In this document: piece after piece, positions 33,960-53,210 of the stretch
Numbering within the stretch: the stretch's first letter is position 1
Layout of the letters: every line of letters begins with the position of its first letter
Source: an uncultured Ignavibacteria bacterium
Lineage (GTDB): Bacteria > Zixibacteria > MSB-5A5 > DSPP01
DNA length: 64,000 nucleotides
Assembly: GCA_964607165.1 (NCBI GenBank)
Contig: CAZSIT010000003.1
Span: 78,384-142,383, forward strand
Direction of reading: 5' to 3'
Program-made: the position numbers and the translations under genes
Notes under the pieces: generated by a model
Told to the model about the DNA's origin: nothing
Database searches by the model: none
The model's input: only the letters and a program-made list of their open reading frames with translations

Positions 33960-36900
33960 ATGAAAAAAATTGTTTTGAGTTCATTGATGTTAGTGACGGT
34001 TGTATCGGCTCAAGCCGAGTGGAAAGCCAACCGCTGGCAGCAATGGGTGGACTACACTGTTGAGGTTACTATAGACGCCAAGAATAAAATTTTGACTGGC
34101 ACAGAAAAATTGGTTTATACCAATAACTCTCCGGACACGCTTCGCACAGTTTATTTCCACTTGTATCTCAACGCCTTTCAGCCGGGAAGTTACACCGATC
34201 TGCGCCTGCGGCAGTTTGGGTTTTTTGACACCAAGGATTTGCCGCTCAAAGAACAGGGAGCCGAGTCGCTTTCTTACTTTGCCGTCTCCGGCGTGGAAAC
34301 GCCCTTTACTATGGACAACACCATTATGAAAGCGGATTTGCCCCAGCCGCTTTTGCCGGGGAAATCGGTCACTTTTGACATTAGATTCAAAGATAAAATT
34401 CCGCCCGATGGAGATAGAATGGGCTTTCGAGGAAAGCATATCGATATGGGCCAGTGGTATCCACGTATGGCGGTTTATGACCATAAAGGCTGGCACGCCG
34501 ACCAGCATATGGGACACGAGTTTTATGCCGATTACGGGCGGTTTAACGTGAGCGTTACCCTGCCCAAAGAATACATTCTGGGGCACACGGGGAAATTGAT
34601 GAACGAGGAGGAGCTTTTTCCGGGCGGCTTGCCGGTGCCCGGGGGGGATACGGTTCTGGTAGATATTCTCAAAATCTACAAGGAGCGGCAAAAAAAAGAA
34701 AAAGCAGATACTTTGGCCGGTGATTCCACGGCGCAAGGGACAGAGTCGCTGAAGAAAATGGCGGGGGGACGCCCGAACCGAAAGCAAAACGATGAGGATG
34801 GGAACTCCCTTAGCCGTCGGGAAATGCGCCGGGGCGGGTCGGGGGGCGATAATCGGAGGAGCAGAGAAAGGGGCGAAGCGCGCGATTCATCCAGTGGGAA
34901 AGACAGTGTGGAAGTGCGAACCTGGAAAATGTTCGCCGATACGGTTTTTGATTTCGCCTTTGCCGCCGACCCCGGCTACCTCTGGGACCGGGCGCAATGG
35001 AACGGAATTATCATCAATTCGCTCTATACCCCCGACCGGAAACGTTTCTGGGCCGATTCGGGAGCGGTATATACCCGCTTCATTATCAAATTCTACTCGG
35101 AAACTTTTGGAATGTGGCCCTACCCACAGTTCACTTCCTGTGTGGGCGACGTGGGGGGTGGGATTGAATATCCCCAGATGACCATTATAACGCGCCGCTC
35201 AGGGCGGGATTTCTCCCACGGCCTTTTCTCCATCCTGGCGCACGAAATCGGGCACAACTGGTTTTACGGACTTATCGGCAACAACGAAACGTATGAGGCG
35301 TTTTTGGATGAGGGATTCACCTCCTTTGCCACCTGTTTGGTGATGGAGGACCGCTATGGACGGTATGAAAATGCCAATGCCTGGGGAAAGTGGTATCAGA
35401 AAAAGTTTTTTTACAATGATGATGAGCGGCAGGGGGAACAGCGAAGCTACATCCGCTTTTCCAAAACGGGCGCGGAAGAGCCGATAGATACCCATTCCGA
35501 CCAGTTCTTGGGAGGCGGAGCTTATAACATTGCCGTTTATCAAAAAACCGCTTCGATGCTGTTTATGCTGCAATACACGCTGGGAGACTCGGTTTTTGAC
35601 CGGGCGATGAAGGAGTATTACCGGCAATGGCATTTCCATCACCCGTATCGCGACGATTTTGTGTCCTCGATGGAGAAATCGTCCGGCCGGCATTTGGAAT
35701 GGTTTTTCCGGCAGTGGCTGGATAGAACTTTCACGGTAGACTACGCTCTGGACAAAGTTAAATCAAAGAAAAACGGCAAGAGTTATACGGCAGAAGTGAA
35801 AGTTAAACGCAAGGGACGAGCGATAATGCCTTTGGATTTGGATTTGCGGCTGGAAAACGGGCAGGTGGTTAACCAAAAGATTCCGGTCGATTTTTGGCAG
35901 AATAGCGAAGCAGAGCGAACCTTCAGCTACGAAGTCCTGGCCAAGGTTCGTTCGGCGGAACTGAATCCGGATTCGCGGATTGCCGACGTTAATCGGCTGA
36001 ATAACACCTATCCGGTGCCGCGGGTGCGCACCAATTTTGACCCGCCGCGAATGTTTTTTCCATCCACACCAACGCGCAATCCGATTGACGCCTATCAAAT
36101 CGTCTGGCGGCCGAATATCTGGTATAACCGCGTCGATTTCTTGAAATTGGGTCTTAATTTTTCCGGCAGTTACATCGGAGTTGACCATAATACTAACTTT
36201 GAGCTCTGGGGGGGAACTAAGAGCGGAAATTTTGACTTCGATTTAAGATATAATTCCCGGCTGTATGCCTTTGGGCCGCGCTGGAACTGGAATTTTTCGG
36301 CCTACAACGTGGAAGGGAGGCAGGGAGGAAACGTCGGCTTAACGAAACAGCTGGGACAAACCCGCTTTTTCGGGGGAGGGGCGCCCAAACAGGTTTCGGC
36401 GGGGTTCAGCTTTTCTCGTCTCTCCAAAGGCGAGTACTTGCCGGCTTTCTCGCAGTACGGTTTGGGGCGGGTAGCGAATCTGTATTTCAACTTAAGCACC
36501 AGTTGGACGAAAGGAAAAATTTCTTCCCAATTTGACGGCGGTCTGACCACCAGTTTGCCCCGCTCCCGTTTCGCGTACAGCAAACTCTGGCTGGAGTTGA
36601 ACAATACGCTGGATTTAATAAAAAAATTCCCGACCTCGTTTAGGATTTTTGCCGGAACTTCCGATGGTCTTGTGCCTTTGCAAAATCGGTATTATCTGGC
36701 AACCGCGTCACCCTCGGAAATTTTCGCTTCCCGCTGGTATCGTTCCAAGGAAACGTTGCCGGAAGAATGGAAAAACTCCGGGCATCTGTATCCACCCGGC
36801 GGCGGTGATTTGCACGGTTATCTTTTCGCCAATCGGGATGCCCGCCACATAGCTGCCTTGAACGCGCGGGTTGGTTTTGACAACCCATTAACCTGGTCGT

Positions 36901-37193
36901 TGGATAAATTGAAAATCGGATTGGGCGAAGTTAGCAAAAATTTGAATGCGATTACCACCGAAGCATTTTTGGATTTCGGACAGGGGTGGAACTCCACCAA
37001 AACCCCGCCGTCGGCCGATTTTCTGGCCGATTTCGGGCTGGCCGCCAGCTACCGCATTCCTTACCAATGGCTGCGAAACGGTCTGGGAAACGAGTCGATT
37101 CGCTTTTACGTCCCACTCTATCTTTCCGACCCCCCCTCTGGTGAAAGGCCTTGGAAATTTCGCTGGCTTTTTGCCTATTCGGTGAAATTCTAA
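33960..37193 (+). CDS. M1-family zinc metallopeptidase fused to a C-terminal Omp85-like beta-barrel
   Basis: Signal peptide. ..GGGIEYPQMTII.. (GxMEN-equivalent), HEIGHNWFYG and ..AFLDEGFTSF.. (HEXXH-18-E). C-terminal ~390 aa are beta-rich with ..GGGDLHGYLF.. and end ..FAYSVKF. Confidence 0.85.
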   Translation: MKKIVLSSLMLVTVVSAQAEWKANRWQQWVDYTVEVTIDAKNKILTGTEKLVYTNNSPDTLRTVYFHLYLNAFQPGSYTDLRLRQFGFFDTKDLPLKEQGAESLSYFAVSGVETPFTMDNTIMKADLPQPLLPGKSVTFDIRFKDKIPPDGDRMGFRGKHIDMGQWYPRMAVYDHKGWHADQHMGHEFYADYGRFNVSVTLPKEYILGHTGKLMNEEELFPGGLPVPGGDTVLVDILKIYKERQKKEKADTLAGDSTAQGTESLKKMAGGRPNRKQNDEDGNSLSRREMRRGGSGGDNRRSRERGEARDSSSGKDSVEVRTWKMFADTVFDFAFAADPGYLWDRAQWNGIIINSLYTPDRKRFWADSGAVYTRFIIKFYSETFGMWPYPQFTSCVGDVGGGIEYPQMTIITRRSGRDFSHGLFSILAHEIGHNWFYGLIGNNETYEAFLDEGFTSFATCLVMEDRYGRYENANAWGKWYQKKFFYNDDERQGEQRSYIRFSKTGAEEPIDTHSDQFLGGGAYNIAVYQKTASMLFMLQYTLGDSVFDRAMKEYYRQWHFHHPYRDDFVSSMEKSSGRHLEWFFRQWLDRTFTVDYALDKVKSKKNGKSYTAEVKVKRKGRAIMPLDLDLRLENGQVVNQKIPVDFWQNSEAERTFSYEVLAKVRSAELNPDSRIADVNRLNNTYPVPRVRTNFDPPRMFFPSTPTRNPIDAYQIVWRPNIWYNRVDFLKLGLNFSGSYIGVDHNTNFELWGGTKSGNFDFDLRYNSRLYAFGPRWNWNFSAYNVEGRQGGNVGLTKQLGQTRFFGGGAPKQVSAGFSFSRLSKGEYLPAFSQYGLGRVANLYFNLSTSWTKGKISSQFDGGLTTSLPRSRFAYSKLWLELNNTLDLIKKFPTSFRIFAGTSDGLVPLQNRYYLATASPSEIFASRWYRSKETLPEEWKNSGHLYPPGGGDLHGYLFANRDARHIAALNARVGFDNPLTWSLDKLKIGLGEVSKNLNAITTEAFLDFGQGWNSTKTPPSADFLADFGLAASYRIPYQWLRNGLGNESIRFYVPLYLSDPPSGERPWKFRWLFAYSVKF

Positions 37194-37204
37194 GAGTACA
37201 AGTG

Positions 37205-38947
37205 ATGAAAACCCTCTTTTTATTTCTTGTCGGGACTCTATTATCCATGCCTGTTTCAGCCGAAGTGAAAATCGCTTTTGGCGTGGAAGAAAGGCTGGCC
37301 AGGCAGGACTCCGTGAAAGTGTGGGTATTTTTTAAAGATAAAGGGGTTGAATTCCAGGATAACGTTCTTTTGCGAAAGGCGGCGGAAGCGACTGTAAGCA
37401 ATGAAAGCCTGCGGCGGAGGGTTAACCGCTTGGGAAACAGGCCGCTTTTTGATTATTCGGATTTGCCTTTGAATCGAGTGTATCTGGAGCAGATTTTGAA
37501 CGCCGGCTGTCTAATCGACAACGTTTCGCGCTGGCTGAATGCCGCTTCGGTTTGGATGGATAAAACAGCCTTGGACAAAGTGAAACAATTATTCATCGTT
37601 GATTCGGTGAAATTGGTGCTTTCGGCAAAGAGATTGGAACCGAAGCCAACCGGAGAGCCCTTATTCCGTCCGGTTCAGCCAGACAGTTTCGTTTTGAATT
37701 ATGGGCCATCGCTGGACCAGCTGCAACAGATAAACGTGCCAATTTTGCATCGGTTGGGTTATTCGGGGAAGGGGGTAAGAGTGGCTATGTTTGACACCGG
37801 TTTTTTGTTATCCCATATAGCGTTTGATTCCTTGCGGCTGACCGGGAGAATTTTGGCCACGCGGGATTTTATTCACGACGATACGGACGTGGTAGATTTA
37901 AACGATGCTGACGGGGCTGCACAGCGGTTTCACGGAACTTTGACCTTTTCTGCAATGGCTGGATTTACCGAGGGTTCGCTTGTTGGGCCGGCATTTGGGG
38001 CATCTTTCCTTCTGGCAAAAACCGAAGTTGTGGCGACCGAGACGCTCTTGGTAGAGGAAGACAATTGGGTGGCAGCTTTGGAATGGGCGGACAGTATGGG
38101 GGCGGAAGTCGTTTCCTCCTCGGTGGGTTATTTCATCGGGGATGACGGAATCGGCTATACTCAAAGTCAGATGGATGGGAACACGGCGGTCACGACAGTG
38201 GCGGCGGATATGGCAATGGCTAAAGGGATTTTGGTGGTAAATGCAGCTGGAAACGAGCGAGGCAACTCCTGGGGCACGCTTATCGCTTCGGCTGATGGCG
38301 ATTCGGTTTTGGCGGTAGGCGCGGTCAACAACCTGGGACAGATTGCCAGCTTCAGTTCGCCCGGGCCCTCGGCGGATGGTCGGATTAAACCGGATGTCTG
38401 CGCGCGTGGGGTTGCCACGGTTTGCGCCTCCTCTTTTTCCAATACAAGCTTTGGATTTGCATCGGGAACTTCCCTTTCAACCCCACTGGTAGCGGGGGCG
38501 GCGGCTTTGCTTTTTGAAATCGATACGACTTTGTCGCCGTTTGCGGCCTACACCCGTTTACGTCAAACGGCAAGTCAGGCCTCGAGTCCGGATAATGATT
38601 TGGGGTATGGGATTATCAATGCGCTTTCGGCTTCAGGGTTGGCCTCGCAGATAGTGAACGGTGGGAGAGAGCCGATTGAAATTAAGGTTTTTCCGAACCC
38701 CTCTTTTGGACGGATGATACTGCGGATTAGCACGCAGAACAGACGGAACGTGAAAGTGGCGATTTTTTCGACAGCCGGGGAAGTGGTCAGGCAATTGCAG
38801 GTCGAGACTTTCGGCAGTATGGTGCCCTCGGATTTGGTTTGGAATGGGGAGAATCAGAAAGGGGAACCAGTCTCCGCAGGGATTTATTTTGGAGTGGTAA
38901 AAGCGGGTGAAACCGAGGAAAGTTTTAAATTGGCGGTGGTGCATTAA
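37205..38947 (+). CDS. S8 subtilisin-like serine protease with T9SS-type C-terminal sorting domain
   Basis: ATG 37205 gives signal MKTLFLFLVGTLLSMPVSA. Triad blocks VAMFDTGF, HGTLTFS and SGTSLSTPLVAGAAALL. CTD is ..IKVFPNPSFGRMILRI..VAIFSTAGEVV..SAGIYFGVVKAG..KLAVVH. Confidence 0.9.
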   Translation: MKTLFLFLVGTLLSMPVSAEVKIAFGVEERLARQDSVKVWVFFKDKGVEFQDNVLLRKAAEATVSNESLRRRVNRLGNRPLFDYSDLPLNRVYLEQILNAGCLIDNVSRWLNAASVWMDKTALDKVKQLFIVDSVKLVLSAKRLEPKPTGEPLFRPVQPDSFVLNYGPSLDQLQQINVPILHRLGYSGKGVRVAMFDTGFLLSHIAFDSLRLTGRILATRDFIHDDTDVVDLNDADGAAQRFHGTLTFSAMAGFTEGSLVGPAFGASFLLAKTEVVATETLLVEEDNWVAALEWADSMGAEVVSSSVGYFIGDDGIGYTQSQMDGNTAVTTVAADMAMAKGILVVNAAGNERGNSWGTLIASADGDSVLAVGAVNNLGQIASFSSPGPSADGRIKPDVCARGVATVCASSFSNTSFGFASGTSLSTPLVAGAAALLFEIDTTLSPFAAYTRLRQTASQASSPDNDLGYGIINALSASGLASQIVNGGREPIEIKVFPNPSFGRMILRISTQNRRNVKVAIFSTAGEVVRQLQVETFGSMVPSDLVWNGENQKGEPVSAGIYFGVVKAGETEESFKLAVVH

Positions 38948-41544: not shown

Positions 41545-42228
41545 ATGAAGGGAACTATAGTAAACACGGCTACAGTTTTGATTGGAGCGTCTATTGGATA
41601 TTTCGCGGGAGCGCGGCTGCCGGAACGAATCCGAACCATAGTCATGCAAGCGTTGGGTTTGGTGACTTTGCTTATAGGTGTGCGGATGATTTTGGCGGCA
41701 CAGGGTTCGGATGCGGTTCTGAAGGTGGCCGGTGCTTTGCTGTTGGGGGGAATTGCCGGAGAGCTTTTGAGAATTGAGCAGGGGTTGGAACGAACAGGAG
41801 AATATCTTAAAGTAAAAATGCAATCGAGTTCCTCCACCTTCGTTTTGGGGTTCGTTTCCGCTTCGCTTCTGTTTTGCGTGGGGCCGATGACCATTGTCGG
41901 TTCGATTGAAGACGGCGTGCGCGGAAATGCAACTATACTTTACACCAAATCGATTATGGATGGGGTGGCGGCGATTGCTTTGACTTCGAGTTTGGGTGTA
42001 GGAGTTTTCTTTTCGGCAATTACCGTTTTGGTCATCCAGGGCGGCCTGACGCTTTTGGGGGCTCATATTGGAGTTTTGTCCCAACCTGCAGTTATTGACA
42101 ATCTGACCTCCACCGGCGGAGCGATGATTCTGGGGATTTCCTTTAAGCTTTTGAATATCGCCGCCATCCGGGTGGCCAATTTCCTACCCGCCCTGGTGTT
42201 TGTGATTTTCTTTTCGCTCTGGTTGTAG
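41545..42228 (+). CDS. DUF554-family (YqgA/YdfK-like) membrane protein
   Basis: MKGTIVNTATVLIGASIGYFAGARLPERIRTIVMQALGLVTLLIG.. is typical of the DUF554 N-terminus. Polytopic. Confidence 0.85.
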   Translation: MKGTIVNTATVLIGASIGYFAGARLPERIRTIVMQALGLVTLLIGVRMILAAQGSDAVLKVAGALLLGGIAGELLRIEQGLERTGEYLKVKMQSSSSTFVLGFVSASLLFCVGPMTIVGSIEDGVRGNATILYTKSIMDGVAAIALTSSLGVGVFFSAITVLVIQGGLTLLGAHIGVLSQPAVIDNLTSTGGAMILGISFKLLNIAAIRVANFLPALVFVIFFSLWL

Positions 42229-42242
42229 TCTATGGTGAGATT

Positions 42243-42273
42243 AAAAAAGCCCCGCCTTCCGGCGGGGCTTTTT
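42243..42273. terminator. Bidirectional intrinsic terminator
   Basis: AAAAAAGCCCCGCC-ttcc-GGCGGGGCTTTTT: 9-bp GC stem flanked by A-run and T-run, between convergent units. Confidence 0.85.
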
Positions 42274-42298
42274 CCGAATGAGCCTTTTTGCGCCCTGC

Positions 42299-42370
42299 TC
42301 AGGGCTCGGTAGTGCTGCCGCAGGAACAGTTACAGACAGGCCGCAGCATATACCGTCTGGTCCAGTTCAT
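42299..42370 (-). CDS. Unannotated micro-ORF, 23 aa, MNWTRRYMLRPVCNCSCGSTTEP
   Basis: Hand translation. ATG is preceded by AAGGAGGTGAgttt. Last ORF before the terminator. Not in the ORF track (<60 aa). Confidence 0.5.
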   Translation of the reverse strand: MNWTRRYMLRPVCNCSCGSTTEP

Positions 42371-42420
42371 AAACTCACCTCCTTAATGCAAAGCAGGTTG
42401 GATATTCAACCGCGTCAAGT

Positions 42421-42516
42421 TCAGCCGCACTTGCAAGAGCAGCAGTTACATTTCGATTCAGCTCCGGGCTTGGAAGCAGCCTCGTCGCAGGTGCAGCAAC
42501 AGCAGGATTGTGACAT
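42421..42516 (-). CDS. Unannotated Cys-rich micro-ORF, 31 aa, MSQSCCCCTCDEAASKPGAESKCNCCSCKCG (metallothionein-like composition)
   Basis: Hand translation. 10 of 31 residues are Cys. ATG is preceded by AAGGAGGTGAaaacg. Lies 72 nt downstream of the ArsR/SmtB regulator on the same strand. Confidence 0.6.
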   Translation of the reverse strand: MSQSCCCCTCDEAASKPGAESKCNCCSCKCG

Positions 42517-42588
42517 CGTTTTCACCTCCTTTCCAAATACCGTCATATTGATATATTCGTATTTATGTATAAGTCATACTAAAAAAAT

Positions 42589-42948
42589 TCAGCCGTTTTT
42601 GTATTTGGTTGAAAAGTTTAAAAGCACCGGCTGGCAGCAGGCGAAGCTGGAAAAAAAGCCGATGCAGCAGGCTTTAATTTTAACCTCGGCGACGTCGTAA
42701 TAGACATTCTGGCCTTTCCGCTCGGCGGTCACCAGCCCGGCATTTTTCAAAACCGATAAATGACGGGAGATGGTGGGCTGGGAGAGGTTGAAAAAGTTCA
42801 CGATTTCATTCACCGCGCGCTTCTTCCCCTCCAGCATCAAAAGGATTTTCTGGCGGGTGGGGTCGGCCAAGGCCTTGAAAATGGGGGCGAATTGCCGGGC
42901 AGTTTCTTCGGTTTTGGTTTTCATATTCTCTAATAGCAATATACGCAT
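42589..42948 (-). CDS. ArsR/SmtB-family metalloregulator
   Basis: Winged-helix block ..FKALADPTRQKILLMLEGKKRAVNEIVNFFNLSQPTISRHLSVLKNAGLV... No ELCVCDL-type site. C-terminal CC..CC (..KACCIGFFSSFACCQP..). Confidence 0.9.
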   Translation of the reverse strand: MRILLLENMKTKTEETARQFAPIFKALADPTRQKILLMLEGKKRAVNEIVNFFNLSQPTISRHLSVLKNAGLVTAERKGQNVYYDVAEVKIKACCIGFFSSFACCQPVLLNFSTKYKNG

Positions 42949-43161
42949 AAATCAATGAAAAGTTTAGGATTTTTTAAAAACCTGATAGGACCGTTATCCA
43001 AAGAAAAATGAGGAACTCGGCAAAAAGTTTCACGATAAAGGGCGGAAAATGTTAGAGGGTGGATTTTACATAAAGATAAGTCATTGAAAATGAATCGGAT
43101 TTGCAGATTGCAAGGATTGGCAGGCAGGTTGCTTCAAATGCACTTTTTTGGGGGTAGGGGC

Positions 43162-43320: not shown

Positions 43321-46300
43321 ATGAGGACGATTGTAACGATAGTAACCCTTCTTTTGGCTCCAGGGGCTTGGGCCGGGGAATATGATGATGTTGAGATTGT
43401 ACGGATGGATGATAGAGGAATAGTATTTGAGTATCGGCCGGTTGATGTTCGATTGGAATTATCGGGAGCAGCGCGTGCAAGCGATGGAGGCAGCGCCCGG
43501 CACGGCAATCTTAAATGTTTGTTTATCGACAATTGTGCCCGCACGGCGGGAGAAGGAAATTTTGATTTGCCGGTGAGAGTTGTGCTATTGGGAATTCCAG
43601 CAGATGCAAAGCCGGAAGTGAATGCTTGGGTCGATGGAGAAACTATAGTTTCAGGAGGGAGTGCCGCTGTTATTGAACAAAGTCTTCCAGGGCTTGGACA
43701 ATCGGCGTCGGAGTTTGCTTTAAAAGAAAAATCCGAGGTTGAGAAACGTGTAGCCATTGAAAATCCTTTTTGGATTGGAAACCAGCGGGTTTTAAGGATA
43801 AAGGTTTTTCCGGCGAATTATGATATTTCGACAAAGCAGTACCGTGTGGCTGGGAAATTACAGGTAGAGGTTAGATTCAACTCGTCGGGTCACCTGGCTT
43901 CAAGTTTGACGGCCAATGCTTGGGACAAAGTTTTGAAAAAGGGGTTGTTGAATTATGAGCAAGCAAAAGAATTCCGCACCGAACCGCAGGAAAGTGGGAA
44001 GCTGGCAAAAGCTATAGCGTTTTCCTCTCCTTTTGATAGTTCAACTAACTGGGTGAAGCTAACTTTTCAGGAGAACGGTATTTACAAAATTGACCGTGCG
44101 ATGCTTTCGGCTGCCGGCGTTCCAGTTTCAACCATTGGCCCACAAACATTTCGAATCTTTTCTATGGGCGGGAGAGCATTACCGGCTTTCAACAATGTAC
44201 CGAGACCGGCTTGGCAGGAGCATTCTATTGAGGTTACGGGGGAACAGGATGGAATTTTTGATACGGGAGATGAAATCCATTTCTATGGTTGGGCGGTAGT
44301 GGGGTGGGATTACGATACTCTTTCCGCAACTTTCAAGTTTGTCAAAAACAATTACACTACGAGTCAAGTGTTCTGGTTAACCTGGGGAGGGAGTTTTGGC
44401 AATGCTCCTTTAAGAATAGCCAGATCTTTCGTTGTGGGGAGTGGATCTCCGGTTACTTCTTTCCCCGCCCATTATAGGTTTGAACAGGACCGATTTTTGG
44501 CAGTAGATAGATTTTCTGAAATCAACGATTATTACACCTGGTACGGCGGGAAAGGAAATTCGCAAACTTATTTTTTTAATTTGCCTGGTTTGGTATCAAA
44601 TCCTGATACAATAATAGTTGGGCATCTCTCCGGCGGGGTTTCTTTGTTGGTTAATAATTCATTTGCGACTACCAATAATCCGATTTTGCAGCCGGCAGCA
44701 TTCATTACATCTGCTTTAAAAGCAGGTTTGAATAGAGTTGATTTGGGAGTCACGACCAATGGCAGCGGGTTAAATCATTTTGATTATCTGGAGATTTTTT
44801 ACAATCGGCTGCCGGTCTATACCCCTCCGTTTATGGAGTTCGAGACGCCGAATATCTCGGGGCTGGTTGAATTTCAGATTAGCAGCACTCCCGTAAATTT
44901 TGTGTGCTGGGGTATAAGTAATCGCTTTAGGCCGGGAGTTGTGCAAGCGACACGAAATTCTTCGGGTGTTTTGTCGTTGGTCGATGATGCTTCCATTAAA
45001 CGATCCTACATACTTACTTCTATAGCTGACTTTAAGCGGCCCACCCTTTCCCGGGAAAGCCCGGTTGACTTGATGACCGGGCCGAATCAAGGGGAGTTTG
45101 TCCTTATCGCTCCTACCTTGTTTCAGCCAGCGCTTTCGATTTATGCAGCCCATCGGGCAGACTCTAGCGGGGTAACAGTTAAGCAAGTTGACGTGGAGCA
45201 GATTTACAACAACTTTTCGGGCGGGCTGCCGGACCCGGTAGCCATTCGAGATTTCTTGAAATTTGCACGGGAGAATTGGGGAAATCCCAAACCGCGCTAC
45301 GTGCTTTTGGCTGGAGACGGGACCTACGATTTCCGAAATATAGAAGGGACGGGAGCGGTCAACTACGTGCCACCGTTTATCGTGGATCAGGCGTTTGATG
45401 CTTCCAGTAATTCGGATGAAGGGTATCTATATTTTGGCAACCCCGGCTTTCTGGATTCGGCCGACCAAACTTTGGATATGACGGTTGCCCGCTGGCCGGT
45501 GAAAAACGTTTCCGAATTGCAGGTGGTGGCCGATAAAATTATGCGCTATGAAAGTTCGCCCGAATATGGGGTATGGAGGAATCGCGTCACGCTGGTGGCT
45601 GATGATGAATTTGGAACGTTTGACAACGAAGGGTTTCATACCGCCAGCAGTGAGCAATTGGCCTCTCGGTACACTCCCAGGCGGTTCGATCAGAAAAAAA
45701 TCTATCTGTTCGATTATCCTTTTAACGGCCTTAGAGAAAAACCGGAAGCGGAACAAGCGATTTTGCGGGCTTGGAACGAAGGTCAATTGCTTATCAATTA
45801 CGTAGGTCACGGCAGCCCGAATCTTTGGGCACATGAGCATGTTTTAAAGCGGGAAGAAGATGTGCCGCAGATGGTCAATAGCAACCGGTTGCCATTAGTT
45901 TATGCTGCGTCCTGCAATATCAATTCGTTCGTTGAGCCTCTGTCGGAGGGGATGGGAGAGGATTTATTAAAAAGCCCGGCTGGCGGGGCGGTGGCTGTCA
46001 TTGCCGCCGTGCGGGTTGTTTTTGCCGGTCCGAATAACGATCTAAACGATAGTACTTTTAATTTGCTGTTAGGTTCTGACTCTCTTTCTATCGGCGAAGC
46101 CTTTTATTTGGCTAAACTGCTGCGGCAGCCGAACGGTAACGATCGCCGCTTTCTGTTGTTTGGCGACCCGGCCATGCATTTGGCCAGACCGACCTACAAC
46201 ATCTGCCTGACCGCTCCGGATACGCTTTCGGCTTTGACCGTCGCTACCGTATCGGGCGAAGTAACCGCCGGCAAAGTAACCGATACCGCTTGTACCGCCG

Positions 46301-47247
46301 GTGTTCCCTTGAGCAGCTTTAATGGAACAGTCAAGCTCTCGGTTTTTGACGGCCTGCGCTCCAAGTCCCATCCGTTAGTCCCCACGCCGCTGTCGTATTC
46401 CCTGCCGGGGAATATGATTTATCGAGGAGATGCTCAGGCAACGAATGGCCGGTTCAGCTTTTCGTTTATAGTTCCCAAAGATATAAGTTACGGTTCAAAA
46501 ACTGGGAAGATTTCGGTGTATGCCTTTGACGCAACCGGTGATGCGGTTGGATTCAAAGATTCAATGGCTTTGGGCGGCTCGGTGGCCGTTACCACCGATA
46601 CCGTTGGGCCAAAGATTTCTGTGACCGTCGTAGGCGGCGGGTCGGTGGGCGCCGGAGACGTCATTTCGGTTGGAGTCAATCTGTCGGTGAAATTGGAAGA
46701 TTCCTCCGGCATCAACATTACCGGCGAGCCGGCACATTCAATAACGGCGGAGTTTGATTTTCCATCCGGGCTAACGCTGGACATAACAAGCAGTTTTCGC
46801 TATGAGCAACGGTCGTTTTCAAGCGGGGAGGCCTTTTTCACCGTGCCGGCGGTTTCTACGGGAAGACATGCGTTGAGGATAAAAGCCTGGGATTCGGCTA
46901 ATAATTCCTCGGTTTTGGAGTTTCCGATTGAAGTAGCCGCCTCCGGAAAACTTTTGCTTTCGAATGTCTTGAACTATCCCAACCCGATGAAGGATAAAAC
47001 GAATTTTTGCTATACCCTTTCGGCGCCGGCGGATGAGGTGATGATTGAAATCTTTTCGGAAGCGGGAAGGTCAATAAAGACCATCCGTTCCGCTTCGGTG
47101 AAAGCCGGATACAATTTTCAGACCGAATGGAACGGCCGAGATAACGACGGAGACGTTGTGGCATCCGGGATTTACCTTTACAAAGTTTGGGCCAGACAGG
47201 CTTCGAAAGAAGCGGAAGAGTTTGGCAAAATCGTGGTAATGAGATGA
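43321..47247 (+). CDS. porU: C25 (gingipain-family) cysteine peptidase with T9SS-type CTD; candidate T9SS sortase PorU
   Basis: Signal peptide. ..RYVLLAGDGTYDFRN.., ..LINYVGHGSPNLWAHE.. (His) and ..LVYAASCNINSF.. (Cys). CTD is ..LNYPNPMKDKTNFCYTL..SGIYLYKVWAR..KIVVMR. About 1300 aa and directly upstream of a PorV-like gene, as porU-porV are in Porphyromonas. Confidence 0.6.
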   Translation: MRTIVTIVTLLLAPGAWAGEYDDVEIVRMDDRGIVFEYRPVDVRLELSGAARASDGGSARHGNLKCLFIDNCARTAGEGNFDLPVRVVLLGIPADAKPEVNAWVDGETIVSGGSAAVIEQSLPGLGQSASEFALKEKSEVEKRVAIENPFWIGNQRVLRIKVFPANYDISTKQYRVAGKLQVEVRFNSSGHLASSLTANAWDKVLKKGLLNYEQAKEFRTEPQESGKLAKAIAFSSPFDSSTNWVKLTFQENGIYKIDRAMLSAAGVPVSTIGPQTFRIFSMGGRALPAFNNVPRPAWQEHSIEVTGEQDGIFDTGDEIHFYGWAVVGWDYDTLSATFKFVKNNYTTSQVFWLTWGGSFGNAPLRIARSFVVGSGSPVTSFPAHYRFEQDRFLAVDRFSEINDYYTWYGGKGNSQTYFFNLPGLVSNPDTIIVGHLSGGVSLLVNNSFATTNNPILQPAAFITSALKAGLNRVDLGVTTNGSGLNHFDYLEIFYNRLPVYTPPFMEFETPNISGLVEFQISSTPVNFVCWGISNRFRPGVVQATRNSSGVLSLVDDASIKRSYILTSIADFKRPTLSRESPVDLMTGPNQGEFVLIAPTLFQPALSIYAAHRADSSGVTVKQVDVEQIYNNFSGGLPDPVAIRDFLKFARENWGNPKPRYVLLAGDGTYDFRNIEGTGAVNYVPPFIVDQAFDASSNSDEGYLYFGNPGFLDSADQTLDMTVARWPVKNVSELQVVADKIMRYESSPEYGVWRNRVTLVADDEFGTFDNEGFHTASSEQLASRYTPRRFDQKKIYLFDYPFNGLREKPEAEQAILRAWNEGQLLINYVGHGSPNLWAHEHVLKREEDVPQMVNSNRLPLVYAASCNINSFVEPLSEGMGEDLLKSPAGGAVAVIAAVRVVFAGPNNDLNDSTFNLLLGSDSLSIGEAFYLAKLLRQPNGNDRRFLLFGDPAMHLARPTYNICLTAPDTLSALTVATVSGEVTAGKVTDTACTAGVPLSSFNGTVKLSVFDGLRSKSHPLVPTPLSYSLPGNMIYRGDAQATNGRFSFSFIVPKDISYGSKTGKISVYAFDATGDAVGFKDSMALGGSVAVTTDTVGPKISVTVVGGGSVGAGDVISVGVNLSVKLEDSSGINITGEPAHSITAEFDFPSGLTLDITSSFRYEQRSFSSGEAFFTVPAVSTGRHALRIKAWDSANNSSVLEFPIEVAASGKLLLSNVLNYPNPMKDKTNFCYTLSAPADEVMIEIFSEAGRSIKTIRSASVKAGYNFQTEWNGRDNDGDVVASGIYLYKVWARQASKEAEEFGKIVVMR

Positions 47248-47281: not shown

Positions 47282-49867
47282 ATGAAAAGGGTGCTTTTCG
47301 TAGGGGCCGCTTTGGCCATTTTGTTTGCAGCCGTCCAGCCGGTTTCGGCTTCGTTGCGGCAGGCGGGAGCTCTGTCTTTGCGCATTTCCACCGGAACGCG
47401 GCCGGCTGGAATGGGTGATGCTTTTGTCGGTTTGGCGGATGATTACACGGCCACGCATTTTAATCCCGCCGGATTGGGACGGTATCCGATGAGTCCGGAC
47501 TGGATTACCCATTCGCTTCCGCCCGGGAAGGGGCCGATTCGCCAGATTGCCCTTTTGCGCAACAACGTGCCGGAACAAAATTACAAGCGCTACGACATCT
47601 GGGTTTTGGCTGGTAACGAGCTTTTGCACTGGAACGGCGTTGAGTGGGTGAGCGGGACCTATCACCAGGTGGAAGGCAGCGAGACTTTGGAGGGAATTGT
47701 TTCGCGCTGGATGAAAAATGTTTCCGACGAAAGGCTGCGAGCAGTCACCCGCCAGGTGGCGGAGGCCAACAGTCGGATTACCTATGCCGAGCTGGCCGGC
47801 CTTAAGGACAAAGTGCTGACCGCTTTGCCTCCGGATTTTGTTGATTCGGAAAAAGAGAAGTTAGCAGTTGCCTTTGATAATCTTTTGGAGCGGTTTGACA
47901 AAGGATTGGGTGTGCCGGCCGGGTTGATTTCATTGAAAACAATTGCCGTACGAGCGCTGGAAGATGAAAGAATTTCGGTGCAGGAAGCCTCTAATATCTT
48001 ATCTGTTTTAGGAAAAGCTTCTGGTAATCTCTTGCCGGATAAGGTCTTTTTGTGGTACGGTTTGGCGTTTTCCGATATGATTGAATCAATTGCTTCGGAT
48101 GAACGGGCCTTGTGGGTGGCTACGCAAACCGGCGTTGCGCGCTATGACGGCGAAAGCTGGAACAGTTTCGGCTCGGAGGAGGGGTTGCCGGAAGGGCCTT
48201 TTAGATACATGGCTGTGAGCCCGGCAAAAACCGCCTGGCTGGCGAATCAAAAAGGACTTTTCTCTTTTACCGGCGGACACTGGACGCTATCCGAAATGGC
48301 TCCCGGGGTCTCGTTCCCAGAAGGTGGTCCAAAACGGATGGTTTTTTCGGGAGAGCGGGCTGGCTGGGCAATTTGTGACAACGACCTTTTCTTTTATGAC
48401 GGAAAAAAGTGGGACAATCGTTTTGAGGTGAGCGCGGGTGTTGCGCCGGAGCTGGAAAAGCTGGTTAACCGCTTTGCGCCGGGTGTGGATTCGGCTCGAA
48501 TGGCTGACGCCATTTCAGAGATTAGAACTATCAACAACTTCGGTGATTCGGCTATTGCGCCGGGGAAGAAAATATTGGTGCCCTTTAAGCTCGCATTCCG
48601 TGGAAGGCTGACCTCTGTTGCTGTTGACCCGTTGGAAGCGGTTTGGATTGGAACGGAGACCGGGCTTTTGCGCTTTGCCGAAGGGGAGTTCAACGTATTC
48701 GGATACGCCCCCTTTACAGTTACAAAAGAAAAGACACTTTTGGAGGTAGCCAAGCGCTATACCGGCGATTCCAATCCACAACGGTTGACGCGCTGGATAG
48801 AGCGGGTGAGAAATTACAATCGGTTAACTTCCGACGAAGTGGCGCCTGGCCAGAAGATCTGGTTATACCGGGGGCCAGCGGGGAGTAAAATCAGCTCAAT
48901 TTATGCCAATACCGAAGTTGTGTGGGTTGGCTCGGAGTTCGGAATTCTGAAATTTAACAAAATAGAATTTGAACGGTACGAACCGGCGGGGTTGGCGCGA
49001 ACTCCTACGGTGGACGTGCAGTTTAAAGGAGCAGATGGCTTTTTCGCCACCGCTAATCAGGTAACCGTTTATGCCCGGCCGTGGAGGCAATTTGGTTTAA
49101 TGCATTCCAACTGGCTGCCGGATCTGGCGGAAGATTTGTTCTTTGATTCACCGGCTTACGTGCAGCATTTTTCCGGCATCGGCACCTTCGGACTGCATAT
49201 GACCTTTCTCTCTTTGGGTCGCAACACCAGAATTAGCGAAACCGGGGATACCCTCGGTTTTTTCGACAGCTTTGAGGGTTCAATTGGCCTTTCTTATGGG
49301 ACGCGTTTGTCCAATTCACTGGCGGGAGGGTTGACCGGTAAATTTATTTTGAGCAAGCTGGCCACGGTCGGCACGGCGCGGGAACTTGGAAAAGGGCAGG
49401 GAACCTCATTTGCCGTGGATTTTGGATTGCTATACCAGACTCCCATTAAAAGGCTGACATTGGGTTCGGCTTTGACCAATATCGGGCCGAGGCTCCAGTT
49501 TATTGACGCTGATCAGGCCGACCCTCTGCCGCGAAATTTGGCCGTTGGATTCTCCTACAAAATCTTGGAATCGGCTTATAACAAGCTGACCTTGTTAACG
49601 GATTTCAACCGGGATCTGGTCAGTCTGAAAACAGACCGGGGATTTTTCAAAACCTCAATCGAAAATTTTGGGATTGAGTACTGGTACGGTTCGTATTTTG
49701 CCGGCCGCGCCGGTTACGTGTATGACCCGGACGGTCAATTGAAGTATTTGACTTTGGGCACCAGCTTACAATATCGGAATTTCCGGTTTGACCTCGCCTA
49801 CATTCCTTCTTCCAAAAATTTAGCGCTGGCCAATACCTTGCGTTTAGCTTTAATTGGCAAGTTTTAA
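47282..49867 (+). CDS. porV: PorV/PorQ-family outer-membrane barrel carrying a ~550-aa insertion (propeller-like and LysM-like segments)
   Basis: N-terminus is ..ALSLRISTGTRPAGMGDAFVGLADDYTATHFNPAGLG... The C-terminal ~240 aa form a barrel ending ..RLALIGKF. The middle has repeated [FY]xGxxW segments (RYDGESWNSF, FTGGHWT, FYDGKKWDN) and ..APGQKIWLY.. / ..APGKKILVP.. LysM-like ends. Confidence 0.6.
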   Translation: MKRVLFVGAALAILFAAVQPVSASLRQAGALSLRISTGTRPAGMGDAFVGLADDYTATHFNPAGLGRYPMSPDWITHSLPPGKGPIRQIALLRNNVPEQNYKRYDIWVLAGNELLHWNGVEWVSGTYHQVEGSETLEGIVSRWMKNVSDERLRAVTRQVAEANSRITYAELAGLKDKVLTALPPDFVDSEKEKLAVAFDNLLERFDKGLGVPAGLISLKTIAVRALEDERISVQEASNILSVLGKASGNLLPDKVFLWYGLAFSDMIESIASDERALWVATQTGVARYDGESWNSFGSEEGLPEGPFRYMAVSPAKTAWLANQKGLFSFTGGHWTLSEMAPGVSFPEGGPKRMVFSGERAGWAICDNDLFFYDGKKWDNRFEVSAGVAPELEKLVNRFAPGVDSARMADAISEIRTINNFGDSAIAPGKKILVPFKLAFRGRLTSVAVDPLEAVWIGTETGLLRFAEGEFNVFGYAPFTVTKEKTLLEVAKRYTGDSNPQRLTRWIERVRNYNRLTSDEVAPGQKIWLYRGPAGSKISSIYANTEVVWVGSEFGILKFNKIEFERYEPAGLARTPTVDVQFKGADGFFATANQVTVYARPWRQFGLMHSNWLPDLAEDLFFDSPAYVQHFSGIGTFGLHMTFLSLGRNTRISETGDTLGFFDSFEGSIGLSYGTRLSNSLAGGLTGKFILSKLATVGTARELGKGQGTSFAVDFGLLYQTPIKRLTLGSALTNIGPRLQFIDADQADPLPRNLAVGFSYKILESAYNKLTLLTDFNRDLVSLKTDRGFFKTSIENFGIEYWYGSYFAGRAGYVYDPDGQLKYLTLGTSLQYRNFRFDLAYIPSSKNLALANTLRLALIGKF

Positions 49868-49874
49868 GAGGAGG

Positions 49875-52800: not shown

Positions 52801-53210
52801 ATGGTTATCAGATTGACTATTTGGAGTTTGCTTCGAGAGCGAGTTGGACCCAGGTGCGGCACGATTTTGCCGGCTCCAACTTTTTGCCAAAAGTGAAGGT
52901 CCAAGGGATTGGCGGGGGAGAGTTAATTGCCGAAAAATCGTTTTACAACTATCCTAATCCGGCAACCGGAGGGAAAACTTACCTGCGTTATCGATTGACT
53001 GCGCAGTCAAAAGCTACCTTGACGGTTTATGATATGGCTGGCAATCAGATACAGAAGCCCAGAGATGATGTCCCCACGCGGATCGGTGATGACAACCAAG
53101 TGGAAATTGATTGCAGCGATTGGGCGGCGGGCGTGTATCTTTGCCGTCTGGAAGTGAATGGCGCAGGCAAAAAAGAGGTTGTATTTTGTAAGATGGCGGT
53201 TGTAAAATAG
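49875..53210 (+). CDS. M6-like metalloprotease with FG-GAP/VCBS-like repeats and T9SS-type CTD
   Basis: ATG 49875 is preceded by GAGGAGG. Signal/TM region present. ..AHEFGHQLGLVDIYN.., ..GSGILIWHVDE.., ..GDLDGDGKEEVL... CTD is ..FYNYPNPATGGKTYLRYRL..TVYDMAGNQI..AGVYLCRLEV..KMAVVK. Confidence 0.85.
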   Translation: MLILTQKAGRFILSIGWLLLLVVSGVELFFSAAWGADWPLKKVKLEKPEAPPAVGFHSSVSKKNLLKLTRLSPSGLPFARLSTAAPVETLKVLALRVEFQKEVPDDPSTTGLGVFDRRTKQQFLAAEGHLVDPAPHNKKYFESHLEALDRFYQAVSNGRVKVIGDVWPPVDSEVYQLPYPLAYYDLAGCNSNSCVVGQISRFFVDAVRLADMLSPQIDFSNYQSLVIFHAGSSRQDDIFDNTRNDFFTGFLRLGFDSLLVDSSRDTITEGLILPESPSQDNRIVALNATFAHEFGHQLGLVDIYNTRTNVTQVGDFSLMDNNGADIAAELDFTSLGGRIVLASQLLPVYPDAWSRAFLGFLDTLVVTRGPDSLSLLAAELQHTGIEAVKIPISEQEYFLIENRSVDFDSFPGSALKVDDSTNVVLGPARPQGGSSVFTDEYDALLPGSGILIWHVDEGVAFLDDDGDGFNNFESNTVNTNPQRRFLELKEADGLVDFGGNYFTGFGLSEDMYRAGNNSRFTPTSNPSSRNSFGGQTGVSVTGITPADTVMNFDVNSGYLLSGWPQFTGRFSVDRPPVLGDLDGDGKEEVLAFSGPFILAWRQNGTAFIPNNFTDTSSALNGDSLEFPIAIFSFDPTDTARDSGFTSGPVGADLLGDSLKEVFAGSRDGLIWGFAAEDLNGDSLADFLPSFPVDLNNGAVTVILVGKINPFNSLAIFAGTAAGKGFLISPAGTVLDSNLFRGRIVGTAVDTTGNLFVTSAKKDSVFVYRGFHPIWADTILDSLISEPVVAESDSALLLAFATSGGKLYLYDRNDNLAPRFPVDLGTGAAPQPVWVVNPTGGEPIILLAFDNKIVAYQTNGILVEDFPKSIDRQRPANGSQLPLAGLDRAALSRLSRYVPRSSVEARSIPPQGPEIVLAVGSDNGNIYFPQASEREASFALGTGAEILAPLAATTVDSLSSTIRGAKVFARSTDGFMYGYQIDYLEFASRASWTQVRHDFAGSNFLPKVKVQGIGGGELIAEKSFYNYPNPATGGKTYLRYRLTAQSKATLTVYDMAGNQIQKPRDDVPTRIGDDNQVEIDCSDWAAGVYLCRLEVNGAGKKEVVFCKMAVVK

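What the first reader, a model, noticed from the sequence alone, without database searches (positions are those of the whole stretch)
42299..42948. ArsR/SmtB regulator followed by two unannotated Cys-rich micro-ORFs with near-identical strong Shine-Dalgarno (SD) sites
Downstream of the ArsR/SmtB gene on the minus strand, and before a strong bidirectional terminator, I hand-translated two ORFs too short for the track. They are 42421-42516 (MSQSCCCCTCDEAASKPGAESKCNCCSCKCG, 10 Cys in 31 aa) and 42299-42370 (MNWTRRYMLRPVCNCSCGSTTEP). Each ATG sits 7 nt after AAGGAGGTGA, among the best SD matches in the window. An SmtB-type repressor next to a metallothionein is an established arrangement (smtB-smtA). 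The 31-aa peptide has metallothionein-like composition but no pattern I recognise. The regulator lacks the ELCVCDL-type site and instead has a C-terminal CC...CC cluster that could be its sensing site. The 140-aa plus-strand ORF reported here (42278-42700) is probably an antisense artefact.
Basis: partly seen in the sequence, partly recalled or inferred. Interest (0 to 1): 0.7.

Follow-up and report, generated by a model that had tools for sequence, protein, structure and literature searches.

The report
ArsR-controlled poly-cysteine micro-peptide gene
Next to a metal/arsenic-sensing repressor gene sits a tiny unannotated gene for a 16-31-residue peptide that is about one-third cysteine; it is kept in every related (Zixibacteria-type) genome examined and probably mops up arsenite or other thiol-loving metals, while a second nearby mini-ORF remains unproven.

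Summary
Micro-ORF1 (42421-42516, 31 aa, 10 Cys) looks like a real gene. In all 12 other loci carrying a close arsR (10 distinct versions) an invariant AAAGGAGGTGA plus a start codon opens a 16-31-aa peptide with 30-41% Cys, built from CC doublets (e.g. MKDCCGPGCCGGGSCCGSCCGD). Core variation is only synonymous. Shuffled sequence gives 0.03 such ORFs per 64 kb. A 59%-identical ArsR in a different neighbourhood carries the same module. In a syntenic genome that slot holds arsenite methyltransferase (arsM). The regulator's second Cys pair aligns with Cys95-Cys96 of the AfArsR As(III) site. One operator-like element precedes both arsR and the peptide gene. No protein or RNA family matches the peptide, and gene callers miss it. 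Best reading: an ArsR-derepressed cytosolic thiol sponge, a mini-metallothionein or gene-encoded phytochelatin analogue, most likely for As(III)/Sb(III). The metal and its binding are untested. Micro-ORF2 (42299-42370) occurs only in the window and its 94% relative. It lies in a block conserved at nucleotide level with no codon pattern, so it is unresolved. The 140-aa plus-strand ORF is an artefact.

The parts
42589..42924 (-). arsR: 111-aa ArsR/SmtB-family repressor with C-terminal Cys pairs C86-C87 and C96-C97. The 119-aa ORF reaching 42948 is probably an over-extension.
   Evidence: PF01022 E=8e-16 and NF033788 at 87.9 bits against a cutoff of 55. AF2 model with pLDDT 90 shows the ArsR fold. 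Closest structure is SrnR 7P6F. Homologues start at MKTK/MKAK.
42930..42956 (.). Operator-like element A, just upstream of the arsR start. It contains TTATGCGTATAT, 26 nt before the ATG.
   Evidence: The 12-bp box ATATGCG(T/C)ATA(T/C) lies at -26 in the nine close loci tested, with 0-3 mismatches. It forms a 27-nt inverted repeat with 42547-42573. The extended motif is found only at these two places in 64 kb.
42547..42573 (.). Operator-like element B, between the arsR stop and micro-ORF1. It is a degenerate inverted copy of element A (AAATACGAATAT core).
   Evidence: In the 70-77% relatives a perfect or near-perfect palindrome ATATGCGCATAT sits about 25 nt after the arsR stop.
42522..42531 (-). 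Shine-Dalgarno site of micro-ORF1 (AAGGAGGTGA), 5 nt before the ATG.
   Evidence: AAAGGAGGTGA is present in all 12 related loci with a close arsR, and is invariant at 11 of 11 positions among the four aligned loci while the adjacent spacer varies at 6 of 6 positions. Three copies in the window against 0.13 expected.
42421..42516 (-). Micro-ORF1: 31-aa poly-Cys peptide (10 Cys, CC doublets, no hydrophobic residues). This is the conserved cargo gene of the module.
   Evidence: An ORF is present after arsR in all 12 related loci with a close arsR, complete in 10, giving 10 distinct versions of 16-31 aa. Core variation is only synonymous. Indels are in frame. It is unique in the window.
42375..42384 (-). 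Shine-Dalgarno-like site of micro-ORF2 (AAGGAGGTGA), 4 nt before the ATG.
   Evidence: Retained in L009 only.
42299..42370 (-). Micro-ORF2: 23-aa ORF (MNWTRRYMLRPVCNCSCGSTTEP). Lineage-specific, and its coding status is unresolved.
   Evidence: Intact in L009 with 2 synonymous changes, R5K and S19C. Absent in L010, L013, L019, L021, L023, L024 and L027. It lies in a 192-nt block with 6 differences, against 37% neutral divergence.
42243..42273 (.). Bidirectional intrinsic terminator shared with the convergent DUF554 gene (41545-42228, plus strand).
   Evidence: the fold extends the 8-bp G+C stem to 14 pairs, flanked by A and T runs. The weak Rfam hits here are terminator matches only.
42278..42700 (+). 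140-aa plus-strand ORF: an antisense artefact, not part of the system.
   Evidence: No Pfam hit. It overlaps both micro-ORFs and the arsR 3' end. Its length is not conserved in L009 (117 aa) and it is absent in other relatives.

Best explanation
This is a compact metal(loid)-defence module.

- The ArsR/SmtB repressor binds a 12-bp palindrome-like box in front of its own gene, and a second copy in front of the micro-gene.
- A thiophilic ion binds the C-terminal Cys cluster. As(III)/Sb(III) or methylarsenite is most likely; Cd, Hg, Cu(I) or Zn are possible. The cluster is an AfArsR type-2-like vicinal pair, C96-C97, plus C86-C87.
- Binding releases the repressor.
- The very strong SD then drives high translation of a 16-31-aa, Gly/Pro-spaced poly-Cys peptide.
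- The peptide stays in the cytosol and chelates the ion through its CC pairs. It would act as a mini-metallothionein or a gene-encoded phytochelatin analogue.

What is shown: the gene pair, its conservation, the coding signature, the shared operator-like boxes, the position of the Cys pairs, and the swap with arsM.

What is inferred: repression and derepression, translation, metal binding, and which metal.

Micro-ORF2 may be a lineage-specific extra peptide. It is not needed for the model.
For: 1. Peptide gene retained next to arsR.
- All 12 other loci with a 70-94% identical ArsR have one (10 distinct peptide versions).
- The SD is invariant and the start sits 5-6 nt after it.
- Peptides are 30-41% Cys with almost no hydrophobic residues (one Tyr in one version), and length changes are all in frame.

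2. Coding signature.
- Among L013, L019, L021 and L023 the SD is 11/11 invariant and the spacer 6/6 variable.
- Codons 3-12 vary only at third positions (0/0/3), all synonymous.

3. Not chance.
- One such ORF in the 64-kb window against 0.03 in shuffles.
- In 192 kb of fetched loci the only real hits are directly after arsR.

4. Module behaviour.
- ArsR P0050 (59% identical) sits in a different neighbourhood (bshC, AhpC, LPG-synthase).
- It is followed 35 nt later by SD + MKKESQSCCCCCPPGCCGGRPAK.

5. Cargo swap.
- The syntenic locus L035 (LPG-synthase 51%, ArsR 62%) carries arsM in that slot, 302 bits against a cutoff of 263.
- Another sister ArsR (P0037) also precedes arsM, at 282 bits.

6. 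Sensor site.
- C96-C97 align with AfArsR Cys95-Cys96, and C97 is invariant in the subfamily.
- The type 2 site definition is taken from PMC11868830.
- The AF2 model puts C86/87 in helix 80-91 and C96/97 at the start of helix 95-110.

7. Shared operator-like boxes precede both genes.

8. CC-x(2-3)-CC resembles the CCPGCC tag that binds biarsenicals (PMC3665623). ArsD's vicinal Cys pairs come from my own knowledge.
Against: - There is no expression, translation or binding data.
- The peptide has no detectable homologue of known function.
- No ars transporter or reductase lies nearby in the window.
- Four Cys per monomer could equally suit Cd, Zn, Hg or Cu(I), or a redox or persulfide signal.
- The closest solved relative, SrnR, is a nickel-system regulator that needs a partner protein.
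- All loci come from one candidate phylum and mostly from one conserved neighbourhood, so part of the conservation reflects shared ancestry.
- The operator assignment rests on motif sharing only.
Confidence: 0.55

Rival explanations
1. Two-part sensor. The peptide is not cargo but the metal-binding partner of the repressor, as nickel-binding SrnQ is for SrnR. A metal-loaded peptide would dock on or bridge to the ArsR CC pairs and change DNA binding, and the real output genes would lie elsewhere.
For: The closest solved relative is SrnR (E=4e-20, 45% identity, TM 0.71), aligned through the C-terminal helix. SrnR acts in a complex with the separately encoded metal-binding SrnQ (PMC7055735). Both regulator and peptide are built around CC pairs.
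Against: This ArsR has its own Cys cluster aligned with a known direct As(III) site. Sister ArsRs control an enzyme (arsM) directly, with no peptide present. No further operator copies occur in 64 kb. The peptide varies widely in length and sequence, which is unusual for a specific protein partner.
Confidence: 0.12
2. Redox or reactive-sulfur module. The regulator senses oxidants or persulfides through its Cys pairs, as BigR and SqrR do, and the peptide is a sacrificial thiol or polysulfide buffer rather than a metal chelator.
For: BigR, SqrR and HlyU are among the structural and sequence relatives. The second context lies beside bshC and an AhpC/TSA peroxiredoxin. L035 also has AhpC upstream.
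Against: The invariant vicinal CC aligns with an As(III) ligand pair, not with the BigR/SqrR Cys positions. arsM, an arsenic-specific enzyme, occupies the same slot in relatives. Vicinal disulfides are strained and are poor redox switches (own knowledge).
Confidence: 0.12
3. Cysteine-sensing leader peptide. Ribosomes stall on the run of Cys codons when Cys-tRNA is scarce, and this controls termination or downstream translation, as in the mycobacterial polycysteine sORF attenuators. In the window it would gate micro-ORF2.
For: The ORF has runs of 2-5 consecutive Cys codons and ends shortly before an intrinsic terminator. Polycysteine attenuators are documented (bioRxiv 10.1101/834739). Weak Rfam similarity to Thr and Phe leaders occurs at the terminator.
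Against: In both genomic contexts the ORF is followed by a terminator and a convergent gene, so there is nothing to regulate. It is SD-led rather than leaderless. No cysteine-metabolism gene is linked. The mRNA fold is unremarkable (z=-1.9), with only the terminator stable. Micro-ORF2 exists only in one sub-lineage.
Confidence: 0.06
4. Precursor of a modified or secreted peptide (a RiPP or metallophore such as a methanobactin-like or MNIO product), processed by enzymes encoded elsewhere.
For: It is a small Cys-rich ORF, and methanobactin precursors are of similar size (own knowledge).
Against: No modifying enzyme, transporter or leader/core architecture is present. Neighbours are DUF554, asparaginase II, an aminotransferase and a C25 peptidase. 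Peptides as short as 16 aa leave no room for a leader. The only constant partner is arsR.
Confidence: 0.05
5. Micro-ORF2 specifically: not a gene, but part of a conserved 3' RNA or DNA element or a recent recombination tract.
For: The spacer, ORF2 and the stretch down to the DUF554 stop show 6 differences in 192 nt, against 37% third-position divergence in the flanking genes. ORF2 differences fall 2/1/1 by codon position, and the last 114 nt of DUF554 are also unusually conserved. ORF2 is absent from every other relative.
Against: It has a perfect 10-nt SD 4 nt before an ATG, which is very rare in this genome. The ORF is intact in L009, and two of the four changes are synonymous, one is conservative and one adds a Cys. 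It shares a CNCSC motif with the micro-ORF1 tail. No conserved RNA fold or Rfam family was found.
Confidence: 0.55

Closest known systems
smtB-smtA / BmtA (cyanobacterial ArsR/SmtB repressor with adjacent metallothionein)
   Same: An ArsR/SmtB-family repressor is encoded beside a small Cys-rich protein gene, with operator sites in the control regions. The inferred logic is derepression by the metal followed by sequestration.
   Different: The peptide is 16-31 aa against about 56 aa. It has no match to the prokaryotic metallothionein family in Pfam (the scans returned nothing). It has no His or aromatic zinc-finger-like core and is built from CC doublets. The genes are tandem rather than divergent. 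The regulator lacks the alpha3N and alpha5 His/Asp sites and instead has C-terminal Cys pairs.
AfArsR-type (type 2) As(III)-responsive ArsR controlling ars genes, including arsR-arsM operons
   Same: The C-terminal vicinal Cys pair aligns with Cys95-Cys96. Sister regulators with CC plus upstream Cys precede arsM. arsR is the first gene, followed by cargo.
   Different: There is no Cys102 equivalent; the extra ligands would come from an upstream CC pair 9-11 residues earlier. Identity to AfArsR is only 25%. The cargo is a micro-peptide rather than an enzyme or pump.
Phytochelatins, fungal 25-aa Cu-metallothioneins, and the engineered CCPGCC tetracysteine tag
   Same: These are short, flexible, Cys-dense peptides that chelate As(III), Cd or Cu(I). 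The CC-GPG-CC spacing resembles the biarsenical-binding CCPGCC tag (PMC3665623).
   Different: Phytochelatins are made enzymatically from glutathione, whereas this peptide is ribosomal. No homology exists. Binding here is untested.
Mycobacterial polycysteine leaderless sORF attenuators
   Same: Both are unannotated short ORFs with consecutive Cys codons.
   Different: This one is SD-led, followed by a terminator and a convergent gene, paired with arsR rather than cysteine-metabolism genes, and has no downstream gene to attenuate.
SrnR-SrnQ (Streptomyces griseus)
   Same: SrnR is the closest solved homologue of the regulator (45% identity). It is an ArsR-family protein that works with a separately encoded metal-binding partner.
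   Different: By my recollection SrnQ is far larger than the 16-31-aa peptide and is not Cys-repeat-like (its sequence was not compared here). SrnR has single Cys residues where this protein has pairs. The metal is nickel.

Membership tests
ArsR/SmtB metalloregulators (regulator) | Winged helix-turn-helix ArsR-type domain | tested here: met
   PF01022 E=8.4e-16. NF033788 at 87.9 bits against a cutoff of 55.
ArsR/SmtB metalloregulators (regulator) | alpha1-alpha4, beta-hairpin and C-terminal dimerisation helix fold | tested here: met
   AF2 model with pLDDT 90: H4-19, H22-31, H38-45, H49-61, E65-70, E73-78, H80-91, H95-110. Foldseek top hits are SrnR, HlyU, NolR, CzrA and AfArsR.
Type 1 ArsR (R773) / CadC alpha3 site | ELCVCDL-type CxCxxC motif in alpha3 | tested here: not met
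   The corresponding stretch is RAVNEIVNFF, and there is no Cys before residue 86.
Type 2 ArsR (AfArsR) | Three-Cys As(III) site Cys95-Cys96-Cys102 at the C-terminal helices | tested here: inconclusive
   C96-C97 align with Cys95-Cys96. There is no Cys at the Cys102 position, and an upstream pair C86-C87 is present instead. Site definition from PMC11868830.
ArsR/SmtB metalloregulators (regulator) | Metal(loid)-dependent release from an operator | not testable with these tools
   Only shared operator-like boxes were found.
Bacterial metallothionein (SmtA/BmtA, Pfam Metallothio_Pro) | Sequence membership in the family profile | tested here: not met
   None of five peptide versions hits any Pfam or NCBIfam model even at E<=10.
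Metallothioneins in the broad functional sense | Small size, at least ~15-30% Cys in CC/CxC/CxxC motifs, few or no aromatic or hydrophobic residues | tested here: met
   16-31 aa, 30-41% Cys, 0-1 hydrophobic residues.
Metallothioneins in the broad functional sense | Formation of metal-thiolate clusters and metal-induced expression | not testable with these tools
   Needs biochemistry and expression data.
Polycysteine sORF attenuators (mycobacteria) | Short ORF with consecutive Cys codons | tested here: met
   CCCC, CCCCC or repeated CC.
Polycysteine sORF attenuators (mycobacteria) | First gene of an operon whose downstream (cysteine-related) genes it controls; leaderless mRNA | tested here: not met
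   It is followed by a terminator and a convergent gene in both contexts. A strong SD is present. Definition from bioRxiv 10.1101/834739.
RiPP precursor peptides | Adjacent maturation enzyme and transporter; leader plus core | tested here: not met
   Neighbours are DUF554, asparaginase II, an aminotransferase and a C25 peptidase. Peptides as short as 16 aa.
SrnR/SrnQ two-protein sensor | Partner protein homologous to SrnQ that binds the metal and complexes with the ArsR protein | not tested
   No SrnQ sequence was compared. Only the SrnR-like nature of the regulator was shown.
Known RNA families (Rfam) | Match at or above the gathering score | tested here: not met
   Only sub-threshold terminator-type hits at 42106-42321.

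The most novel reading that the evidence does not exclude
These 16-31-aa CC-repeat peptides could be a previously unrecognised, ribosomally encoded arsenic or soft-metal resistance determinant. They would be a 'genetic phytochelatin' that is interchangeable with ArsM as the cargo of a type-2-like ArsR. That would make them, as far as I know, the smallest prokaryotic metallothionein-like gene products, and systematically invisible to annotation. A bolder variant is that the peptide hands the metalloid to, or shares it with, the CC pairs of its own repressor.
Probability: 0.3. Interest if true: 0.8.

Novelty: new variant of a known kind. Interest (0 to 1): 0.62.

Why it matters
If confirmed, this adds a new and very small gene product to the bacterial metal(loid)-defence repertoire. 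It would also give a concrete example of a conserved functional micro-gene that every gene caller and protein database misses: zero hits among 5.8 billion and 1.84 billion sequences. The module is only about 0.5 kb, so it can be synthesised and tested directly in E. coli. A natural CC-GPG-CC peptide with its cognate sensor could be useful for arsenic or heavy-metal biosensing and bioremediation. It would also inform how uncultured Zixibacteria in sediments and aquifers cope with arsenic.

Tried and rejected
- Pfam and NCBIfam scans of five peptide versions found nothing.
- A profile search of the peptide alignment against 5.8 billion proteins found nothing. It yielded 27 word candidates, none of which scored.
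- A full phmmer search of the 31-mer against 1.84 billion representatives gave 0 hits.
- The Rfam scan at a permissive E-value gave only terminator look-alikes.
- Folding the peptide mRNA gave z=-1.9 with only the terminator stable. A predicted hairpin inside ORF2 is broken by the L009 substitutions, judged by eye.
- The genome-contig scan with ArsR returned only distant ArsRs (Pseudomonas and others) with no CC tail, which was not informative.
- The hgcAB-linked ArsR2 of ND132 was considered as a model for the sensor, but its Cys layout (47/49/86/88) differs.
- The new ArArsR type (Cys41/80/82) does not match either.
- I considered sigma-70 and Bacteroidetes-type promoter assignment for the internal promoter, but no convincing conserved hexamers emerged, so no promoter is claimed.
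- P0042 (CC...CC tail, different phylum-level context) has no Cys-rich micro-ORF nearby, so the tail alone does not predict the peptide.
- A tandem-duplication origin of ORF2 from ORF1 was considered. They share the SD, a TGAACT(T/G)GAC stretch and a 17-nt Cys-block similarity, but the repeats are short and not collinear.
Full report
**1. What is in the sequence**

On the minus strand the region reads as follows:
- an ArsR-type gene (ORF 42589-42948);
- a 72-nt gap;
- AAGGAGGTGA, 5 nt, then ATG opening a 31-codon ORF (42421-42516, MSQSCCCCTCDEAASKPGAESKCNCCSCKCG, 10 Cys);
- a 50-nt spacer;
- AAGGAGGTGA, 4 nt, then ATG opening a 23-codon ORF (42299-42370, MNWTRRYMLRPVCNCSCGSTTEP);
- a strong hairpin with A and T runs on both sides (42243-42273), shared with a convergent DUF554 gene (41545-42228).

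The ATGs lie 5 and 4 nt after the 10-mer.

The exact 10-mer occurs three times in 64 kb, against 0.13 expected. The third copy is antisense inside an M1-peptidase gene and has no start codon after it. Ordinary genes in this window have weak or no SD.

A scan of both strands for SD-led ORFs of 12-80 aa with at least 25% Cys finds only micro-ORF1. Shuffled windows give 0.03.

The 140-aa plus-strand ORF has no family match and is not conserved.

**2. The regulator**

It is an ArsR/SmtB protein: PF01022, and NF033788 at 87.9 bits against a cutoff of 55.
- Homologues are 110-111 aa and start at MKTK/MKAK, so the true start is 42924.
- There is no Cys before residue 86. The four Cys are C86, C87, C96 and C97.
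- A confident AF2 model (pLDDT 90) places C86/87 in helix 80-91. C96/97 open the last helix, 95-110.
- The closest solved protein is SrnR (7P6F, 45% identity, TM 0.71).
- In a MAFFT alignment C96-C97 align with Cys95-Cys96 of AfArsR (6J05). Together with Cys102 these form the type 2 As(III) site (definition in PMC11868830).
- C97 is invariant across 47 subfamily members. A "FFxxFxCC" tail is widespread, and the extra upstream CC is specific to the close clade.

**3. Micro-ORF1 is conserved as a gene**

Loci fetched through ArsR relatives all show, directly after arsR, an invariant AAAGGAGGTGA, a start codon 5-6 nt later, and a poly-Cys ORF. No gene caller had called any of them (for the loci; for the ORFs).

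| Locus | Peptide |
|---|---|
| L009 | MSQSCCCCTCGESASKPEAEQKCNCSCKCG |
| L038 | MDCGCGPCCPGGCGCGCCGD |
| L010 / L024 | MKKCCDPCCGPGCCGSCCGD |
| L013 | MQDCCGPGCCGGGTCC |
| L019 / L020 | MQDCCGPGCCGGGSCCGCCGY |
| L021 / L022 | (GTG start) KDCCGPGCCGGGSCCGSCCGD |
| L023 | MKDCCGPGCCGGCCCSD |
| L011 / L012 | MKGCCDPCCGPGCCGS... (cut by a chimeric junction or contig end) |

- All length differences are in frame. Between the window and L009 one Cys codon is deleted, and the substitutions cluster in the non-Cys linker.
- Among L013, L019, L021 and L023 the SD is invariant at 11 of 11 positions and the 6-nt spacer varies at 6 of 6. Codons 3-12 vary only at third positions (0/0/3), all synonymous.
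- The peptides are 30-41% Cys, rich in Gly and Pro, and have 0-1 hydrophobic residues. They therefore look cytosolic and unstructured.

**4. It behaves as a two-gene module linked to arsenic**

- ArsR P0050 is 59% identical, with the tail CLGICACFDCC. It lies in a different neighbourhood (bshC and AhpC-TSA upstream, LPG-synthase convergent downstream). It is followed 35 nt later by SD + MKKESQSCCCCCPPGCCGGRPAK.
- Locus L035 is syntenic with that one (LPG-synthase 51%, ArsR 62%, TPR 37%, AhpC 34% identity). In the same slot it carries an arsenite methyltransferase, NF008823 at 302 bits against a cutoff of 263.
- Another sister ArsR (P0037) also precedes arsM, at 282 bits. A 9-Cys relative lies upstream of hgcA.
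- NCBI labels for both peptide-bearing clades are candidate division Zixibacteria.
- The window itself has no ars genes near the locus. Neighbours are an aminotransferase, asparaginase II, DUF554 and T9SS-type peptidases.

**5. Control elements**

- A 12-bp box ATATGCG(T/C)ATA(T/C) sits 26 nt before the arsR ATG in the nine close loci tested, with 0-3 mismatches. A perfect or near-perfect palindrome ATATGCGCATAT sits about 25 nt after the arsR stop, ahead of the peptide SD, in the 70-77% clade.
- In the window the two copies are 42930-42956 and 42547-42573. They form a 27-nt inverted pair, 74% complementary. They are the only matches to the extended motif in 64 kb.
- In L027 the peptide is close enough to arsR to be co-transcribed, and a different palindrome precedes arsR there.
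- That this box is the ArsR operator is an inference.

**6. Micro-ORF2**

It is present only in the window and L009.
- The 70-77% relatives have either a hairpin or nothing between the peptide gene and the terminator.
- The 80% relative L038 shows the start of that hairpin before its contig ends.
- Between the window and L009, ORF2 has four changes: R5K, a synonymous Arg, a synonymous Pro, and S19C.
- However, the spacer (96% identity), ORF2 (94%), the 70 nt after it (100%) and even the last 114 nt of DUF554 are all far more conserved than the 37% third-position divergence of the flanking genes. ORF2's changes fall 2/1/1 by codon position.
- The conservation is therefore not codon-patterned. 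It may reflect a recombination tract or a nucleotide-level constraint.
- No RNA family or convincing fold was found.
- Its perfect SD and the CNCSC motif shared with the micro-ORF1 tail keep the coding reading alive. I put it at roughly 40-45%.

**7. Mechanism and rivals**

The best-supported model is an ArsR-derepressed thiol sponge for a soft metal(loid), with As(III), Sb(III) or methylarsenite favoured. Three observations support the choice of metalloid:
- the alignment with the type 2 site;
- the arsM-linked sisters and the arsM/peptide swap at a syntenic locus;
- the known affinity of vicinal Cys pairs for arsenicals (CCPGCC tag, PMC3665623; ArsD from my own knowledge).

Rivals considered:
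- an SrnR/SrnQ-style co-sensor (PMC7055735);
- a redox or persulfide buffer;
- a polycysteine attenuator (10.1101/834739), disfavoured because nothing lies downstream in either context;
- a RiPP precursor, disfavoured because there are no maturation genes.

**8. Novelty**

The logic (an ArsR-family sensor plus a Cys-rich binder) is known from smtB-smtA. The peptide family is not known. No Pfam, NCBIfam or Rfam model matches, and there are no hits in two very large protein collections. My literature searches returned no paper describing an ArsR-linked poly-Cys micro-peptide. I therefore rate it a new variant of a known kind, of moderate to high interest and directly testable.

Noticed in passing
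L025:3451-3669 and L036:524-727: Two related ArsRs (P0026, P0027; tails CHGFFGSFDCC and CCGFFGAFQCC) are each followed by a 67-72-aa protein. The two proteins share a ...DDGL..L.G..ALK.LK...LCCCVP..C motif and have no Pfam or NCBIfam match. This is a second unnamed Cys-motif small protein tied to this ArsR subfamily.
   Followed up: partly
L030:2392-3715: A 9-Cys ArsR relative (RCCCADFFCCFSCCAP tail) is followed by a 152-aa membrane protein, a 57-aa ORF and the N-terminus of the mercury-methylation protein HgcA (NF040863, 178 bits, cut by the contig end).
   Followed up: partly
window 42115-42420 compared with L009: A hyper-conserved block runs from the last ~114 nt of DUF554 through the terminator, micro-ORF2 and the spacer. 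It has 6 differences in 192 nt outside DUF554, against 37% third-position divergence in the flanking genes. It may be a recombination tract or a nucleotide-level functional constraint.
   Followed up: partly
L011:430-700: This contig appears chimeric. After about 16 codons the CC-peptide ORF runs into high-GC foreign sequence that encodes hibernation-factor-like and RapZ-like ends.
   Followed up: no
window 35317-35326 (-): The third exact AAGGAGGTGA in the window lies antisense inside the M1-peptidase gene (33960-37193, plus strand) and has no start codon after it. It looks like a chance match.
   Followed up: yes
window 26408-53210: The neighbourhood is dense in large secreted peptidases and type IX secretion parts: M6 (26408-29467), M1 (33960-37193), S8 (37151-38947), C25 with a FlgD_ig tail (43321-47247), PorV-like (47282-49867) and a Por_Secre_tail protein (49854-53210). 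This fits an FCB-group (Zixibacteria) origin.
   Followed up: partly
L028:2554-2835 (-): A second small ArsR-family gene (93 aa) lies between the AhpC-TSA gene and the peptide-linked arsR in the P0050-type locus.
   Followed up: no
window 42578-42588 and the equivalent position in all close loci: A conserved A(2-6)T(5-7) run directly follows the arsR stop codon (TGAATTTTTTT or TGAAAATTTTTT). Its role (UP element, spacer or bend) is unknown.
   Followed up: no
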